From: Candidatus Nomurabacteria bacterium GW2011_GWC2_42_20
Lineage (GTDB): Bacteria; Patescibacteriota; Minisyncoccia; Phycocordibacterales; UBA1550
DNA: 64,000 nt
Reading direction: 5' to 3'
Assembly: GCA_000998425.1 (NCBI GenBank)
Contig: LCDG01000003.1
Span: 1,619-65,618, forward strand
Shown here piece after piece: positions 5,240-63,440 of the stretch. The number at the start of each line of letters is the position of its first letter. The first letter of the stretch is position 1. Under the pieces are notes generated by a model. That model ran no database searches and had not been told where the DNA came from. It was given only the letters and a program-made list of their open reading frames with translations. The translations under genes and the position numbers were made by a program.

Positions 5240-5254
5240 AAACATTATACACGA

Positions 5255-5290
5255 AACTCCGACTCATTAATGAGTCGGAGTTTCTGTTGT
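5255..5290 (+). terminator. Rho-independent terminator after rpmA
   Basis: Hairpin aactccgactcatt/aatgagtcggagtt followed by tctgttgt. Confidence 0.6.
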
Positions 5291-12257: not shown

Positions 12258-12264
12258 AAACAAA

Positions 12265-12300
12265 AAACCTCTGAATCAGTAGATTCAGAGGTTTTCTTAT
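12265..12300. terminator. bidirectional intrinsic terminator (small ORF / rplU)
   Basis: aaacctctgaatc agt agattcagaggttt flanked by A-run and T-run; lies between convergent genes. Confidence 0.55.
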
Positions 12301-32302: not shown

Positions 32303-32340
32303 TAAAAAAAACACGTAATTTGTAAATTACGTGTTTTTTA
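32303..32340. terminator. bidirectional intrinsic terminator
   Basis: A8-acacgtaatt tgta aattacgtgt-T6; sits between the convergent rsuA and dgkA. Confidence 0.5.
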
Positions 32341-32682
32341 TAAATAGCTCCAAAAAATTATTGCTCCAATCACAGCTGAGACAAAACACACAATAAGAAC
32401 AAACCCTCCCATGATGTCTTTTACCTTACCGATTACAGGGTCGATGTTTGGCTCAACCTTGTTGCATAGGTCCTCGACTGCCGTGTTTAATATCTCAGCT
32501 GAGAGAACTGCACCGACACACCCGACGATAATCATCATGTCTCGCATTAAAAAATTCAGATAGTATGCTGAACACAAAACAATAACAGCAATAACTACCT
32601 CAATTCGAAAGTTTATCTCTTCACGCCACACCACACGTATGCCGTTTATTGCCCAACCAAAGCTCTTAGGTATTTTATCCAT
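32338..32682 (-). CDS. dgkA: diacylglycerol/undecaprenol kinase DgkA family
   Basis: Start trimmed to the internal M (MDKIPKSFGWAINGIRVV...). Three TM helices and the DgkA motif LNTAVEDLCN; trimming removes the overlap with the upstream gene. Confidence 0.65.
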   Translation of the reverse strand: MDKIPKSFGWAINGIRVVWREEINFRIEVVIAVIVLCSAYYLNFLMRDMMIIVGCVGAVLSAEILNTAVEDLCNKVEPNIDPVIGKVKDIMGGFVLIVCFVSAVIGAIIFWSYL

Positions 32683-37240: not shown

Positions 37241-37495
37241 CTATGTAGGTTGTGAATTTATGAAATCCGTCTTTTCCACCCTGCTCCACCTTTTGAACTC
37301 CGCTTCACGGGCGCGCGCGACGCCAAAGCCTTGAACCTCTTCTGAATATCTCAAAACAACGGGTCTGCGAATTTTTGTATAATGCGCGCCACTTTTTAGA
37401 TTATTGTGGGAATGCAGCCTCTTTTCAAGATTACTAGTGCTCCCCACATAAAATGTCCCATCGGCACATTCAAGGATATATACAAAGTGCGACAT
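37241..37495 (-). CDS. GIY-YIG nuclease family protein
   Basis: [28 protein letters not shown] is the canonical GIY-YIG domain; 84 aa. Confidence 0.8.
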
Positions 37496-44476: not shown

Positions 44477-44534
44477 AGGTTAAGTGTACCAAATTTATAG
44501 CAAACAGAATCATCGCATTGCCTGTTTTTGTTCA

Positions 44535-44544
44535 AAGCTGGGAG
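44535..44544. repeat. degenerate direct repeat of tRNA-Gln 3' end (candidate distal att site)
   Basis: aagctgggag is identical to 50686..50695 at the tRNA-Gln 3' end. The flanking ttgggacgaa resembles the T-arm ttggaatcgaa. Confidence 0.35.
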
Positions 44545-44601
44545 TTTGGGACGAAGTGGGAACTTTATTACTGATAAAAAACTTTCATATTGTTAATGCC
44601 A

Positions 44602-48208: not shown

Positions 48209-48644
48209 AATTGCTCATATTACCATTTTTGACGCCTTGCAGGAATTTTCACGGTTTTGCGTCCATAACAGTGAAAAAGTACTCGAAAATACAACTTTTC
48301 ACGGTTATTACATTGAAGAAAAATTTTTGTTTACCATAATTTCAAAATATGATATATTAGAAGAGCTTGAAGCGTATCGAGTGTAGGCATGTGACGGCAT
48401 CACATGCGAAAAAATTCACTGCATTCTCTACCCCTTACTTCAAGGGGTGTTTCGAGTTTCAAATTCTCACAGGAACTCATCGAGGAAACAATTCAGTGCT
48501 TTAGAGAGGAGAATACTGAAGATATCTCTCCCGAAACCGCAAACGAGTATCTCAACTCGCTTTCGGGTTTTTTCCTTGCGCTTGCTGACAATCCATCCCC
48601 TCATCCAAAAGATGAGAACGGGGATGTTTGATGTACCTATATAA

Positions 48645-48692
48645 ATGCACGCTACTTTCTCGATCCTTAAGGGACGAGAAAGTAGCGTGCAT
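48645..48692. repeat. 48-bp near-perfect palindrome
   Basis: atgcacgctactttctcg (18) + atCCTTAAGGga + cgagaaagtagcgtgcat (18). Arms are perfect and the centre contains the ccttaagg palindrome. Confidence 0.7.
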
Positions 48693-48701
48693 AAGTCAAT
48701 T

Positions 48702-49178
48702 ATGAAAAAGAAGCAACCAAGTTATATAAAACTCTACCGTGCCGACCTTAGTGCCCCGCACATCAAGAACCTCTCTGATCGCGAGTTTAGGCTTTGGGTT
48801 GTCTTAAAAGTTCTTGCTGGTTGGGATCCACGACACGAGGAACACTTCATGGTCGTAAAAAGTTCAATCAGAGACTTGCAAGCGAGCCACCTTCCTACAT
48901 GGAAAAGTTCAGGAAAGTTTAGCTTAACGATTAACCAACTGATTGAGAAAGATATGATTAAGCGCATAGGTGTAGGGAAAATGAAACTTTTGAATCCTGC
49001 TCTACGAGAAGAACAAGATTTTCTTCTCAAGGAACAAAGTGTTCTTCTGGAAGAAAATCTTGTTTCGCAGAAAGAACGGGAACGGGTCAACGAAAAGCTT
49101 CAGGACATCAAAAACCTGCTTGCAAATAACGGTATTTTGAGAAAGCGCGAAAATAATATTCCGCCTAAAGAAATATAA
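48702..49178 (+). CDS. hypothetical DNA-binding (winged-helix-like) protein
   Basis: Start trimmed to the ATG at 48702, downstream of the palindrome. Basic, coiled-coil C-terminus. Sits immediately upstream of the recombinase. Confidence 0.35.
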   Translation: MKKKQPSYIKLYRADLSAPHIKNLSDREFRLWVVLKVLAGWDPRHEEHFMVVKSSIRDLQASHLPTWKSSGKFSLTINQLIEKDMIKRIGVGKMKLLNPALREEQDFLLKEQSVLLEENLVSQKERERVNEKLQDIKNLLANNGILRKRENNIPPKEI

Positions 49179-49239: not shown

Positions 49240-50718
49240 ATGAAATACATTATCTACTGTCGAAAATCCACGGAAAGCGAAGACAGACAACTTCTGTCAC
49301 TGGATGCCCAAGAACGGGAGCTTTTGGATATTGCTAATAAGCACAGCCTAGAAATTACAAAAGTTTTTCGCGAGAGCATGTCTGCCAAAGCACCTGGTCG
49401 CCCTATCTTTGACGAGATGATGAAAATCATTGAAAAAGGAAGAGCAGATGCTATCCTCTGTTGGAAAATTGATCGTCTCACGCGTAATCCTGTTGATGGC
49501 GGAAAAATTCAGTGGCTCCTGCAAACGAACAAGATAAAGTGCATTCAGACTTTCGAGAAAAGCTACTTCCCTAATGACAATGTTCTGCTCATGAGTATCG
49601 AGCAAGCAATGGCGAATCAATACATTCGAGACTTGAGCGTGAATGTAAAGCGTGGGCTACGAGAAAAATTGCTTCGTGGAGAATGGCCAAACAAGGCACC
49701 TTTTGGATATACAAACGACAAGGGGTCTAAGTTTGTCATTCCTGATCCTGTTCGTTCAAAATATGTTTCTCGTGCTTTTGAAATCTACCTCACGGGCTCA
49801 CATGGCACAAAAGATATTTCAGAAATTCTTTACAAGGAGGGTTTACGCACGGCTACAGGAAAGAAAATTTTGAAGGGGCGCATTCATAGCATTCTTTCCT
49901 CAATTTTCTACACGGGCATCATGGAAAAAGAAGGAAAATATTATGAAGGCAAACATAAGCCACTCATCTCAAAAGAAACTTTTGAGAAAGCTCAAGATCT
50001 TATGCACGGCCGTTCACGACCCCGCCCACAACGATTATTCTTCCCTCTTCGTGGCTTTCTCAAGTGTGAAAATTGCGGATGCGCCCTCACTGCATCTCTC
50101 AAAAAAGGTCATCACTATTACTACTGCACGGGAAACAGAGACTTTTGCAATGAACACAAAAGCTACATGCGAGAGGTGTACCTATATGAGAAAGTTTCTG
50201 CTGTCCTCGAATCAATTCATTTTTCAGAACGCAAGATCGAGATTATGTATCAGGCGGCCAAGGAGAGACTCGAGTTTGATAATGGGTACAACAACCAGAC
50301 TATATCCACCCTCCAAAACCATTTAAAATCGCTTGAGACGAAAGAATCCCTTTTGCTCGACACTTTCCTCGCTGAACAGATTACAAAGGATTTATACGAC
50401 GCTAAAATCCTCGCTTTGCGTAATGAGCGAGTTCAAGTTACCAAGCAACTCAAAGAAGCCGAATCACGACAACCTGTCGCGCTGTTGGAACCTACCAAAA
50501 ATGCTTTTTTAACCGCTAGTAGAGCCTCAAAAGAGTTTTTAGAAGGCGACGATTTGAAGAAAAGAAATATCCTAGAAAGTCTCTGTTGGAACCTTTCGCT
50601 CAAAGAGAAAAATATCCATACAGTGTCGCTCAAAAGTCCTTTCGACATCATGTCAAAAGCATCGAAAAATGACGGTTTGTGCACTAAGCTGGGAGGCTTG
50701 GAATCGAACCAAGATTGA
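49240..50718 (+). CDS. large serine recombinase
   Basis: Resolvase catalytic domain with Ser in YCRKSTESEDRQ, DRLTRN motif, recombinase domain, and zinc ribbon (CENCGC...YYYCTG). The C-terminus overlaps the tRNA-Gln 3' end. Confidence 0.9.
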   Translation: MKYIIYCRKSTESEDRQLLSLDAQERELLDIANKHSLEITKVFRESMSAKAPGRPIFDEMMKIIEKGRADAILCWKIDRLTRNPVDGGKIQWLLQTNKIKCIQTFEKSYFPNDNVLLMSIEQAMANQYIRDLSVNVKRGLREKLLRGEWPNKAPFGYTNDKGSKFVIPDPVRSKYVSRAFEIYLTGSHGTKDISEILYKEGLRTATGKKILKGRIHSILSSIFYTGIMEKEGKYYEGKHKPLISKETFEKAQDLMHGRSRPRPQRLFFPLRGFLKCENCGCALTASLKKGHHYYYCTGNRDFCNEHKSYMREVYLYEKVSAVLESIHFSERKIEIMYQAAKERLEFDNGYNNQTISTLQNHLKSLETKESLLLDTFLAEQITKDLYDAKILALRNERVQVTKQLKEAESRQPVALLEPTKNAFLTASRASKEFLEGDDLKKRNILESLCWNLSLKEKNIHTVSLKSPFDIMSKASKNDGLCTKLGGLESNQD

Positions 50719-50759
50719 CGGCTTCAAAGGCCGCTGTCCTACCATTAGACGATCTCCCA
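50689..50759 (-). tRNA. tRNA-Gln (UUG)
   Basis: Hand-folded cloverleaf: U1-A72 first pair as in bacterial tRNA-Gln, D-arm GUCU/AAUGGUA/GGAC, anticodon stem GCGGC/GCCGU with loop CUUUGAA, T-arm CUUGG UUCGAUU CCAAG, discriminator G; CCA not encoded. Confidence 0.85.
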
Positions 50760-63380: not shown

Positions 63381-63390
63381 AAAAATAAAA

Positions 63391-63440
63391 AAGCGAGCAG
63401 ATTCTCGAAATTTCTAGAATCTGCTCGCTTTTATATTTTT
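63391..63440. terminator. bidirectional intrinsic terminator
   Basis: aagcgagcagattc...gaatctgctcgctt followed by ttatattttt; sits between the convergent RSH gene and parB. Confidence 0.55.

What the first reader, a model, noticed from the sequence alone, without database searches (positions are those of the whole stretch)
48645..48692. 48-bp near-perfect palindrome upstream of the wHTH gene and serine recombinase
The arrangement is 18-bp perfect inverted arms (atgcacgctactttctcg / cgagaaagtagcgtgcat) around a 12-nt centre that itself contains the palindrome CCTTAAGG. No T-tract follows, so it is not a standard intrinsic terminator. It overlaps the first ATG of the annotated ORF, so the true start is probably the ATG at 48702. 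Location and symmetry fit an operator for the adjacent DNA-binding protein or a recombination site (res/att-like) for the serine recombinase 550 bp downstream.
Basis: seen in the sequence. Interest (0 to 1): 0.55.

Follow-up and report, generated by a model that had tools for sequence, protein, structure and literature searches.

The report
Conserved stem-loop inside a recombinase operon
The 48-base palindrome is real and is kept able to fold into a hairpin in every related copy of a small mobile island of a Parcubacteria genome. It sits between two co-oriented genes, so it is most likely a hairpin in the messenger RNA that tunes expression of the DNA-binding protein and recombinase, not a recombination site or a classical operator.

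Summary
Positions 48645-48692 form a 48-bp palindrome with 18-nt perfect arms and 22 of 24 complementary overall. It is unique in the window and folds far better than shuffled sequence.

It lies in a ~6.15-kb island integrated at tRNA-Gln. It sits 13 nt after the stop of a small conserved gene (ORF75, 48404-48631) and 9 nt before the true start (ATG 48702) of the winged-helix gene. That gene precedes a large serine recombinase.

Four related elements (76-87% winged-helix identity) carry it at the same place. Three outer base pairs changed on both sides and still pair, which needs at least four double changes on the tree. No interior pair is broken. The inner 32 nt hardly vary.

More distant relatives have ORF75-like and winged-helix genes that overlap (ATGA). 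Some carry unrelated strong hairpins at or near that junction.

No second copy or half-site exists, and the site is not at an island junction.

Best reading (confidence ~0.45): a cis-acting stem-loop in the ORF75-wHTH-recombinase mRNA that limits or times expression of the downstream genes. Rivals are a protein site on extruded or duplex DNA, a minus-strand terminator, and a neutral self-correcting palindrome. Interest is modest.

The parts
48645..48692 (+). 48-nt palindrome / hairpin: an 18-bp stem, a 1x1 mismatch (A.A or A.G), 3 more pairs, and a UUAA loop
   Evidence: Conserved with compensatory changes in L001-L003 and partly in L015.
48645..48652 (+). Outer left arm (pairs with 48685-48692). 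Pairing is conserved but sequence is not: positions 2, 5 and 8 co-vary with 47, 44 and 41.
   Evidence: tree
48653..48684 (+). Inner core CTACTTTCTCG-ATCCTTAAGGRR-CGAGAAAGTAG, almost invariant in sequence. Only positions 29 and 30 vary.
   Evidence: About 8 changes are expected at the gene-average rate (my calculation).
48404..48631 (+). ORF75, a small conserved protein gene. Its stop lies 13 nt before the hairpin.
   Evidence: The frame is open in all variants. Homologues lie directly upstream of wHTH in L005 and L011, with more distant ones in L006, L009 and L016. P0092 is 100% identical.
48702..49178 (+). Winged-helix protein gene (158 aa). This is the true start, 9 nt after the hairpin, with no Shine-Dalgarno sequence.
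49240..50718 (+). Large serine recombinase (Resolvase + Recombinase + Zn_ribbon_recom). Its last 30 nt overlap the 3' end of tRNA-Gln.
48330..48358 (+). Promoter-like site TTTACC-N17-TATATT with TG extension, conserved in L001 and L002. Inferred start of the ORF75-wHTH-recombinase transcript.
48388..48408 (+). Leader hairpin 1, which encloses the ORF75 ATG. One pair goes U:A (window), U.G (L002), C:G (L001).
48246..48306 (.). Three copies of TTTTCACGGTT (+, -, +) between the divergent genes: the better operator candidate.
50688..50759 (-). tRNA-Gln(ttg), the right junction of the island
44510..44552 (.). Degenerate direct repeat of the tRNA 3' end and the sequence beyond it: the left junction of the ~6.15-kb low-GC island

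Best explanation
The palindrome is a cis-acting stem-loop in the polycistronic ORF75-wHTH-recombinase mRNA.

Transcription probably starts at the conserved extended -10 promoter near 48358 and reads through ORF75. The 21-bp hairpin then forms 13 nt after the ORF75 stop and 9 nt before the SD-less AUG of the winged-helix gene.

There it uncouples the two cistrons. It limits or gates ribosome access to the downstream genes, or it acts as a processing and stability determinant. Either way, the winged-helix protein and the recombinase would be made at a lower or conditional level than ORF75.

The invariant apical 32 nt may be a recognition surface for a protein or nuclease. The outer 8 bp are needed only as a helix.

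Shown: the hairpin potential, its conservation, the compensatory evolution, the gene order and the start codon. Inferred: that it is transcribed on the + strand, that it acts as RNA, and what it does to expression.
For: (1) Pairing under selection. In four elements 11-16% diverged in DNA, 97.6% of cells pair. Three pairs changed on both sides, and no interior pair is broken. On the best tree ((window,L001),(L002,L003)) this needs at least 4 independent double substitutions.

(2) The only one-sided change inside the stem is U:A to U.G on the + strand. That would be a C.A mismatch on the - strand.

(3) The neighbouring leader hairpin 48388-48408 shows U:A, then U.G, then C:G on the + strand. This argues that the region is a structured + strand RNA.

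(4) Position. It lies between two co-oriented conserved genes, downstream of the only conserved promoter-like site, with no promoter-like site between it and wHTH.

(5) In distant relatives the two genes overlap by ATGA. Strong hairpins of unrelated sequence lie in the tail of the ORF75-like gene. In L011 the hairpin ends 13 nt before the wHTH ATG and also has a CUUAAG apex; L005 has one too. In L010 a hairpin with G.U pairs on the + strand lies upstream of the short ORF that precedes wHTH.

(6) In 5 of 6 lineages the most stable 70-nt fold of the whole locus lies within 450 nt upstream of wHTH.

(7) This genome rarely uses Shine-Dalgarno sites: 7 of 48 long ORFs have an SD-like motif. Many ORFs instead have a -10-like box just before the ATG (my reading of that listing). 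Internal cistrons are therefore likely to depend on coupling or local structure (inference).
Against: There are no transcript data.

The hairpin is almost equally stable on both strands (-36.3 versus -35.6 kcal/mol).

Only four full variants and one partial variant exist, so strand-specific evidence rests on one G.U pair here plus neighbouring or distant hairpins.

A DNA palindrome can also stay perfect by template-switch correction without selection (established mutational mechanism).

The L006/L009/L016 clade has no hairpin at this junction, so the element is not indispensable to the module.

The covariance model finds no homologue in the distant loci, so the recurrence may be convergence.

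The near-invariance of the inner 32 nt points to sequence-specific recognition that is not identified.
Confidence: 0.45

Rival explanations
1. It is a DNA-level protein site. A symmetric oligomer binds the palindrome as duplex or extruded cruciform. The binder could be the adjacent winged-helix protein, ORF75 or the recombinase. It would act as a roadblock or autoregulatory site inside the operon.
For: The inner 32 bp, with the CTTAAG centre, are almost invariant while the flanks vary. The adjacent protein has a winged-helix fold with weak matches to MarR, CRP and RepA_N DNA binders. L011 shares the CUCG..CTTAAG..CGAG apex.
Against: It lies about 290 nt downstream of the conserved promoter-like site and between cistrons. 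At 48 bp it is far longer than a winged-helix dimer site. Compensatory change in the outer arms is not expected for duplex recognition. A separate triple 11-mer repeat sits where an operator would be expected. The element is absent at this position in L005 and in L006/L009/L016.
Confidence: 0.2
2. It is an intrinsic terminator or insulator for the minus strand. It would stop antisense transcription from running into ORF75, the control region and the minus-strand cargo genes. One possible source of that transcription is read-through from tRNA-Gln and the gene upstream of it, which point into the island.
For: On the - strand the G+C-rich stem is followed by 2-5 U in all five variants, although neighbouring bases vary. 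Canonical hairpin-plus-T-tract terminators exist in this genome. The tRNA is on the - strand and its 3' end points into the island.
Against: No minus-strand gene or convincing minus-strand promoter lies upstream of it; the -10-like hits are at chance density. It is 2 kb from the tRNA end. The U-tract is short in the window and in L003. The hairpins of L011 and L017 have their U-rich tails on the + strand instead.
Confidence: 0.12
3. It is a neutral or nearly neutral quasi-palindrome. It arose by insertion or duplication between ORF75 and wHTH and is kept perfect by intramolecular template switching during replication, without a function.
For: Distant relatives have directly overlapping genes without it, so it is dispensable. 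Template-switch correction of quasi-palindromes produces exactly paired changes (established knowledge).
Against: It persists at one position across 11-16% DNA divergence. The inner 32 nt show only 2 variable columns where about 8 are expected. Strong hairpins recur at or near the same junction in unrelated sequence form in other lineages.
Confidence: 0.1
4. It is a recombination site (att-like or res-like) for the large serine recombinase.
For: Its size (48 bp) and dyad symmetry resemble the sites of large serine recombinases (established knowledge). It is about 550 bp from the recombinase gene.
Against: It is a single copy with no half-site elsewhere. The junctions of the integrated island are at 44.5 and 50.7 kb. 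The best half-site match to the junction arms is 15/24, in the wrong orientation and within chance. The central TTAA is symmetric. The three-subsite architecture of res is absent. The element is missing in relatives that keep the recombinase.
Confidence: 0.04
5. It is part of a replication origin or control region of an excised, replicating island whose winged-helix protein is a RepA_N-like initiator.
For: The best, though weak, structural matches are RepA_N initiator N-terminal domains (4pta, 4pql, 4pt7; E about 0.01, TM 0.42-0.45). The wHTH gene carries an internal inverted repeat with 25-nt arms and a 21-nt tandem unit.
Against: The fold matches are below significance and MarR and CRP proteins score alike. 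No Pfam RepA_N hit was found. There is no AT-rich unwinding region or iteron array next to the palindrome.
Confidence: 0.05

Closest known systems
Intercistronic mRNA stem-loops that set differential expression within operons (for example malE-malF REP hairpins and puf operon hairpins; my knowledge, not tested here)
   Same: A stable hairpin lies between two co-transcribed genes with no U-tract on the sense strand. Pairing rather than sequence is conserved in the basal stem.
   Different: This one is a single-copy element, not a dispersed REP family. Its apical 32 nt are sequence-conserved. Its effect on RNA decay or translation is untested.
Post-transcriptional control of integrase genes by RNase III-sensitive hairpins (lambda sib retroregulation of int; my knowledge)
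   Same: A long, perfect hairpin of about 21 bp (about two helical turns) sits on the transcript that carries a recombinase gene of a mobile element.
   Different: sib lies downstream of int and works only in one integration state. Here the hairpin is upstream, between gene 1 and gene 2. RNase III cleavage is not tested.
attP/attB sites of large serine recombinases
   Same: Length of about 40-50 bp, dyad symmetry and proximity to the recombinase gene.
   Different: It is an almost perfect palindrome with a symmetric centre. It is internal to the integrated island, has no partner, and shows no significant similarity to the real junction arms.
Palindromic operators of MarR-type or other winged-helix repressors
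   Same: An inverted repeat next to a winged-helix gene.
   Different: It is 2-3 times longer than such operators. It does not overlap a promoter. Its outer arms co-vary.
Intrinsic (Rho-independent) terminators
   Same: A G+C-rich stem-loop. On the minus strand a short U-run follows in all variants.
   Different: There is no U-tract on the strand that carries the flanking genes, and no gene on the minus strand to terminate.

Membership tests
Structured cis-regulatory RNA element | Base pairs maintained by compensatory substitutions across homologues | tested here: met
   Three pairs have double changes, 97.6% of cells pair, and the slid controls pair at 29-52%. At least 4 events are needed on the tree.
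Structured cis-regulatory RNA element | Transcribed on the strand on which it is proposed to act | not testable with these tools
   This is inferred only, from the conserved promoter-like site at 48330-48358 and the co-oriented flanking genes.
Structured cis-regulatory RNA element | Strand-specific tolerance of G.U pairs | tested here: inconclusive
   There is one U.G in the window hairpin, and U:A/U.G/C:G in the neighbouring hairpin. By my own reading of the printed arms, L010 and L006/L009 also have G.U pairs on the + strand. The cases are too few.
Structured cis-regulatory RNA element | Match to a curated RNA family | tested here: not met
   Rfam gathering search found only the tRNA. The E-value search found only sub-threshold generic miRNA-precursor hits.
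Large serine recombinase att site | Located at the junction of the integrated element, or present together with a partner site | tested here: not met
   The junctions are at about 44.5 kb and 50.7 kb. There is no second copy or half-site.
Large serine recombinase att site | Asymmetric central dinucleotide that gives polarity | tested here: not met
   The centre is CCTT|AAGG, symmetric.
Large serine recombinase att site | Half-sites resemble the arms bound by the same enzyme at attL and attR | tested here: not met
   The best matches are 11/24 and 15/24. About 3% of random 121-nt windows reach 15/24, and that match is in the wrong orientation.
res site of resolvase/invertase-type serine recombinases | Three dimer-binding subsites next to a small serine recombinase gene | tested here: not met
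   There is a single palindrome. The enzyme is a 492-aa large serine recombinase with Recombinase and Zn-ribbon domains.
Winged-helix (MarR-like) operator | Inverted repeat that overlaps the regulated promoter | tested here: not met
   The only conserved promoter-like site is about 290 nt upstream. The A/T box just 5' of the palindrome is not conserved.
Winged-helix (MarR-like) operator | Specific binding by the cognate protein | not testable with these tools
   This needs a gel shift or footprinting.
Intrinsic terminator | U-tract immediately 3' of a G+C-rich stem on the transcribed strand | tested here: inconclusive
   The + strand tail is AAGUCAAUUAUG, so it is not met there. The - strand has 2-5 U in all variants, but no gene or promoter is identified on that strand.
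Dispersed palindromic repeat (REP/MITE-like) | Many copies per genome | tested here: not met
   There is one copy in 64 kb. The exact 20-nt core has 0 hits in IMG/VR and 1 hit (the L001 MAG) in 185,579 species genomes. The rest of the source genome could not be searched.

The most novel reading that the evidence does not exclude
The hairpin at the ORF75/wHTH junction could be a dedicated recognition element, as RNA or as extruded DNA. One of the island's own proteins (ORF75, the winged-helix protein or the recombinase) would read its invariant apex, CUCG..CUUAAG..CGAG. This would form a previously undescribed switch that couples the state of small recombinase-borne defence islands of Patescibacteria to recombinase expression. 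The recurrence of junction hairpins in several lineages, and the shared CUUAAG apex in L011, would then reflect common descent with complete stem turnover.
Probability: 0.12. Interest if true: 0.6.

Novelty: new member of a known kind. Interest (0 to 1): 0.33.

Why it matters
If the reading is right, this is a small, cleanly delimited regulatory hairpin that controls a large serine recombinase operon in an uncultivated Parcubacteria lineage. Almost nothing is known about gene regulation or mobile-element control in that lineage.

It also corrects the annotation of the winged-helix gene start. It identifies a conserved three-gene module (ORF75, winged-helix protein, recombinase) that carries varied defence-like cargo.

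It is not a new recombination mechanism. The general kind of element, an intercistronic stem-loop, is familiar.

Tried and rejected
(1) Second copy or half-site. The arm at up to 3 mismatches, the 24-nt half-site, the 16-nt core and a covariance model all found only the site itself. An 18/24 match at 37382 lies inside a coding region. I estimate its chance probability at about 0.15 expected per window, and I treat it as chance.

(2) Similarity of the half-site to the island junction arms: not significant, and in the wrong orientation.

(3) Bridging mini-ORF. In the window a 24-codon ORF (48631-48705) starts on the ORF75 stop (TGATG), reads through the hairpin and ends on the wHTH start (ATGA). 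It is not conserved. L001, L002 and L003 lack the ATG, and L015 has an immediate stop (my reading of the sequences). I rejected it as coincidence.

(4) A promoter just 5' of the palindrome (TATATAA). The box is not conserved in L001 or L002 and no -35 is present.

(5) A minus-strand promoter for a short antisense RNA. Only CATAAT, the reverse of the start codon region, was found, at chance density.

(6) Restriction-site idea. CTTAAG is under-represented (6 observed, 19.9 expected), but so are many other palindromic hexamers, so this is uninformative.

(7) Known RNA families: none.

(8) Pfam and PHROGs for the winged-helix protein and ORF75: no significant family.

(9) Literature searches for serine recombinase operators, ccrAB inverted repeats, DUF5659 and Parcubacteria islands gave nothing that bears on this element.

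(10) Searches for more relatives were limited. The IMG/VR scans found nothing. The JGI metagenome scan gave one locus. The GTDB scan gave only the L001 MAG.

Full report
**Observation.** The sequence at 48645-48692 is ATGCACGCTACTTTCTCG ATCCTTAAGGGA CGAGAAAGTAGCGTGCAT.
- The arms are 18 nt perfect, or 24 nt with 22 of 24 complementary and no spacer.
- The arm sequence occurs only as these two arms in the 64-kb window at up to 3 mismatches. Shuffles give 0.04 expected.
- As a single strand it forms an 18-bp stem, a 1x1 mismatch, 3-4 further pairs and a small apical loop. The energy is -36.3 kcal/mol against -11.6 +/- 2.7 for shuffles, z = -9.15.
A T-tract is missing only on the + strand. On the - strand the stem is followed by 2-5 U in every variant.

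**Context.** The window carries one tRNA, tRNA-Gln(ttg), at 50688-50759 on the - strand.
- A 492-aa large serine recombinase (Resolvase, Recombinase and Zn_ribbon_recom domains) is encoded at 49240-50718. Its last 30 nt overlap the tRNA 3' end.
- G+C drops to 0.34-0.39 between about 44 and 49 kb.
- A degenerate copy of the tRNA 3' end and the sequence beyond it lies at 44510-44552.
- This delimits an island of about 6.15 kb. Its minus-strand cargo has hits to HATPase_c, DUF2726 and (below the Pfam cutoff) DUF6998, plus two ORFs (168 aa, 150 aa) without a Pfam hit.
- The plus-strand module is ORF75 (48404-48631), the palindrome, a 158-aa protein (48702-49178) and the recombinase.
- ORF75 is 100% identical to a protein that NCBI names from 'Parcubacteria group bacterium GW2011_GWC1_42_11'. 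JGI metagenome contigs L012-L014 are 100% identical to the window over 3-5.4 kb.

**The neighbouring genes.** All homologues of the 158-aa protein start MKKKQPS. The upstream in-frame ATG at 48645 is AAG in L002 and ACG in L003.
- The protein belongs to a small family: 78 representative clusters at E <= 1e-3 among 1.84 billion.
- It has a conserved N-terminal domain and a C-terminal run of VQxxEQx-like heptads.
- The AlphaFold model (pLDDT 79) is a winged helix. PDB matches are weak and generic: RepA_N initiator N-domains, MarR and CRP, E about 0.01 and above. There is no significant Pfam or PHROG family.
- ORF75 stays open in all variants, while the overlapping frame has stops in L001 and L002.
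- ORF75 has clear homologues directly upstream of the winged-helix gene in L005 and L011, and more distant ones in L006, L009 and L016. It is a real gene.

**Comparative evidence for the palindrome.** Four related elements are available, with 76-87% winged-helix identity and 11-16% DNA divergence. A fifth contig breaks at the palindrome centre. All carry the palindrome at the same place.

| Position pair | Change | Where |
|---|---|---|
| 5/44 | A:T to G:C | L001 and L003 |
| 8/41 | G:C to A:T | L002 |
| 2/47 | T:A to C:G | L003 |
| 2 and 48 (outermost two pairs) | unpaired changes | L002 |
| 20/29 (window numbering) | U:A to U.G on the + strand | window |

- RNAalifold and the explicit pair count agree. 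97.6% of cells pair, three pairs have changes on both sides, and slid controls pair at 29-52%.
- The best-supported tree is ((window,L001),(L002,L003)), with 30 informative sites against 16 and 10. On it the 5/44 pattern needs two events, so at least four independent double substitutions occurred.
- The inner 32 nt (CTACTTTCTCG ATCCTTAAGGRR CGAGAAAGTAG) have only two variable columns. About eight would be expected at the average rate of the adjacent genes (my calculation).
- So the outer stem is conserved as a helix, and the inner stem and apex are conserved as sequence.

**Wider family.** More distant relatives (28-46% identity) were read in six further loci.

| Locus | Arrangement at or near the junction |
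|---|---|
| L005 | ORF75-like stop overlaps the winged-helix start (ATGA). No 48-bp palindrome, but a 14-bp hairpin in the ORF tail and an inverted repeat around the ATG. |
| L011 | Same ATGA overlap. A 16-bp interrupted hairpin with a CUCGC-UUAA-GCGAG apex lies inside the ORF tail and ends 13 nt before the ATG. |
| L010 | A long hairpin of about 30 bp with several G.U pairs on the + strand (E -35.8 on + against -26.9 on -) precedes the short ORF that lies just upstream of the winged-helix start. |
| L006 / L009 / L016 | No junction hairpin. An imperfect palindrome with 24-nt arms lies at the start of the upstream DUF5659 gene (L006 and L009). |

- In a scan of 70-nt windows, the most stable fold of the whole locus lies within 450 nt upstream of the winged-helix gene in the window clade, L005, L010, L011 and L017. 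It does not in L006, L009 or L016.
- A covariance model of the window-clade hairpin finds none of these. Common descent is therefore not shown.

**Why not a recombination site or classical operator.**
- There is no second copy or half-site.
- The island junctions are elsewhere.
- The half-site does not resemble the junction arms beyond chance.
- The centre is symmetric.
- The only conserved promoter-like element on the + strand is TTTACC-N17-TATATT with a TG extension at 48330-48358. That is about 290 nt upstream of the palindrome.
- The A/T-rich box just 5' of the palindrome is not conserved as a -10.
- Between the divergent genes lies a much better operator candidate: three copies of TTTTCACGGTT at 48246-48306. 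These are the only occurrences in the window, and they are conserved in L001 and partly in L002.

**Why RNA on the + strand is favoured.**
- The element is flanked by co-oriented genes and lies downstream of the conserved promoter-like site.
- The single one-sided stem change is a G.U on the + strand.
- The neighbouring leader hairpin 48388-48408, which encloses the ORF75 ATG, shows the textbook path U:A, U.G, C:G on the + strand.
- The distant hairpins tolerate G.U on the + strand.
- The genome rarely uses Shine-Dalgarno sites: 7 of 48 long ORFs have an SD-like motif. Many genes have a -10-like box right before the ATG (my reading of that listing). The winged-helix start has neither.
- An internal cistron here probably depends on coupling or on local structure (inference).
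- I therefore propose that the hairpin separates ORF75 from the winged-helix and recombinase cistrons and limits or gates their expression. This could work through ribosome access, processing or stability. This step is inference, and no transcript data were available.

**Caveats and rivals.**
- The hairpin is equally stable on both strands.
- The conserved short U-run on the - strand allows a minus-strand terminator or insulator reading. No minus-strand gene or convincing promoter feeds it.
- Perfect DNA palindromes can be kept perfect by template-switch correction (established knowledge), so paired changes alone do not prove selection. The persistence of the element and the slow inner core argue for function.
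- The invariant core leaves room for a protein that recognises the duplex, a cruciform or the RNA apex.
- The weak RepA_N-like fold matches, together with repeats inside the winged-helix gene, allow a remote origin-of-replication idea.

**Verdict.** This is a real, conserved, hairpin-forming element with compensatory evolution. It is most likely an intercistronic mRNA stem-loop of a recombinase operon in a Parcubacteria island. It is not a recombination site and probably not the operator. It matches no Rfam family, but it belongs to a familiar kind. Interest is modest.

Noticed in passing
window 48246-48306: The 11-mer TTTTCACGGTT occurs three times (+ at 48246, - at 48267 with one mismatch, + at 48296) and nowhere else in the 64 kb. 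It lies between the divergent 150-aa gene and the ORF75 promoter-like site and is conserved in L001 and partly in L002. It is a likely protein-binding (operator) array.
   Followed up: partly
window 48388-48408 and 48432-48448: There are two further conserved hairpins in the leader and 5' part of ORF75. The first encloses the ORF75 ATG and shows U:A, U.G, C:G covariation. The second (CCCCUU-loop-AAGGGG) is followed by a U-rich stretch.
   Followed up: partly
window 49011-49064 (inside the winged-helix gene); L005 942-1001: An inverted repeat with 25-nt arms and a 21-nt tandem unit encode the C-terminal EQ-rich heptads. Similar TGTTC-N8-GAACA units recur in L005. Together with weak RepA_N-like fold matches, this raises the untested idea of iterons inside the gene.
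   Followed up: no
window 50688-50718 and 44510-44552: The last 30 nt of the recombinase ORF overlap the 3' end of tRNA-Gln. The two island ends share an imperfect direct repeat of about 45 nt (about 73% identity) with an identical block, AAGCTGGGAG, where the crossover probably lies.
   Followed up: partly
L012 5384-5417, relative to window 50786/50787: A JGI contig that is otherwise 100% identical has a 34-nt insertion just upstream of the tRNA-Gln gene. Another contig (L013) ends one base past this point. This is population-level variation next to the tRNA.
   Followed up: no
whole window (gene starts): Only 7 of 48 long ORFs have a Shine-Dalgarno-like motif. Many have a TAnnnT -10-like box ending a few nt before the ATG (my reading of the listing), which suggests widespread leaderless mRNAs in this genome.
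   Followed up: partly
window 48631-48705: A 24-codon ORF starts on the ORF75 stop (TGATG), reads through the palindrome and ends on the winged-helix start (ATGA). It is present only in the window variant and is not conserved in L001-L003 or L015.
   Followed up: yes
L015 959 (contig end): The Logan contig ends at the centre of the palindrome. This fits my expectation that assemblers can break at long palindromes. Such breaks may hide further copies of elements like this one in short-read assemblies.
   Followed up: no
L006, L009, L010, L011, L016, L017: The winged-helix family is nearly always next to a large serine recombinase. The islands carry varied defence-like or phage-related cargo: CD_NTase_C, RloB + AAA_15, a DEAD/ResIII helicase, EMARD_N, DUF4365 and a Terminase_2 small-terminase-like gene in L017. 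This suggests a family of small defence or satellite islands; the named sources for the window clade are Parcubacteria and Minisyncoccia.
   Followed up: partly
window 37382-37405: There is an 18/24 match to the palindrome half-site inside a minus-strand ORF. It is not palindromic and is probably chance.
   Followed up: partly
window 5253-5284; 32303-32342; 63381-63440; 12264-12295: Other long inverted repeats occur in the window. One is a 16+16-nt perfect palindrome with no loop (5253). Three are hairpins flanked by A- and T-runs that look like bidirectional intrinsic terminators.
   Followed up: no
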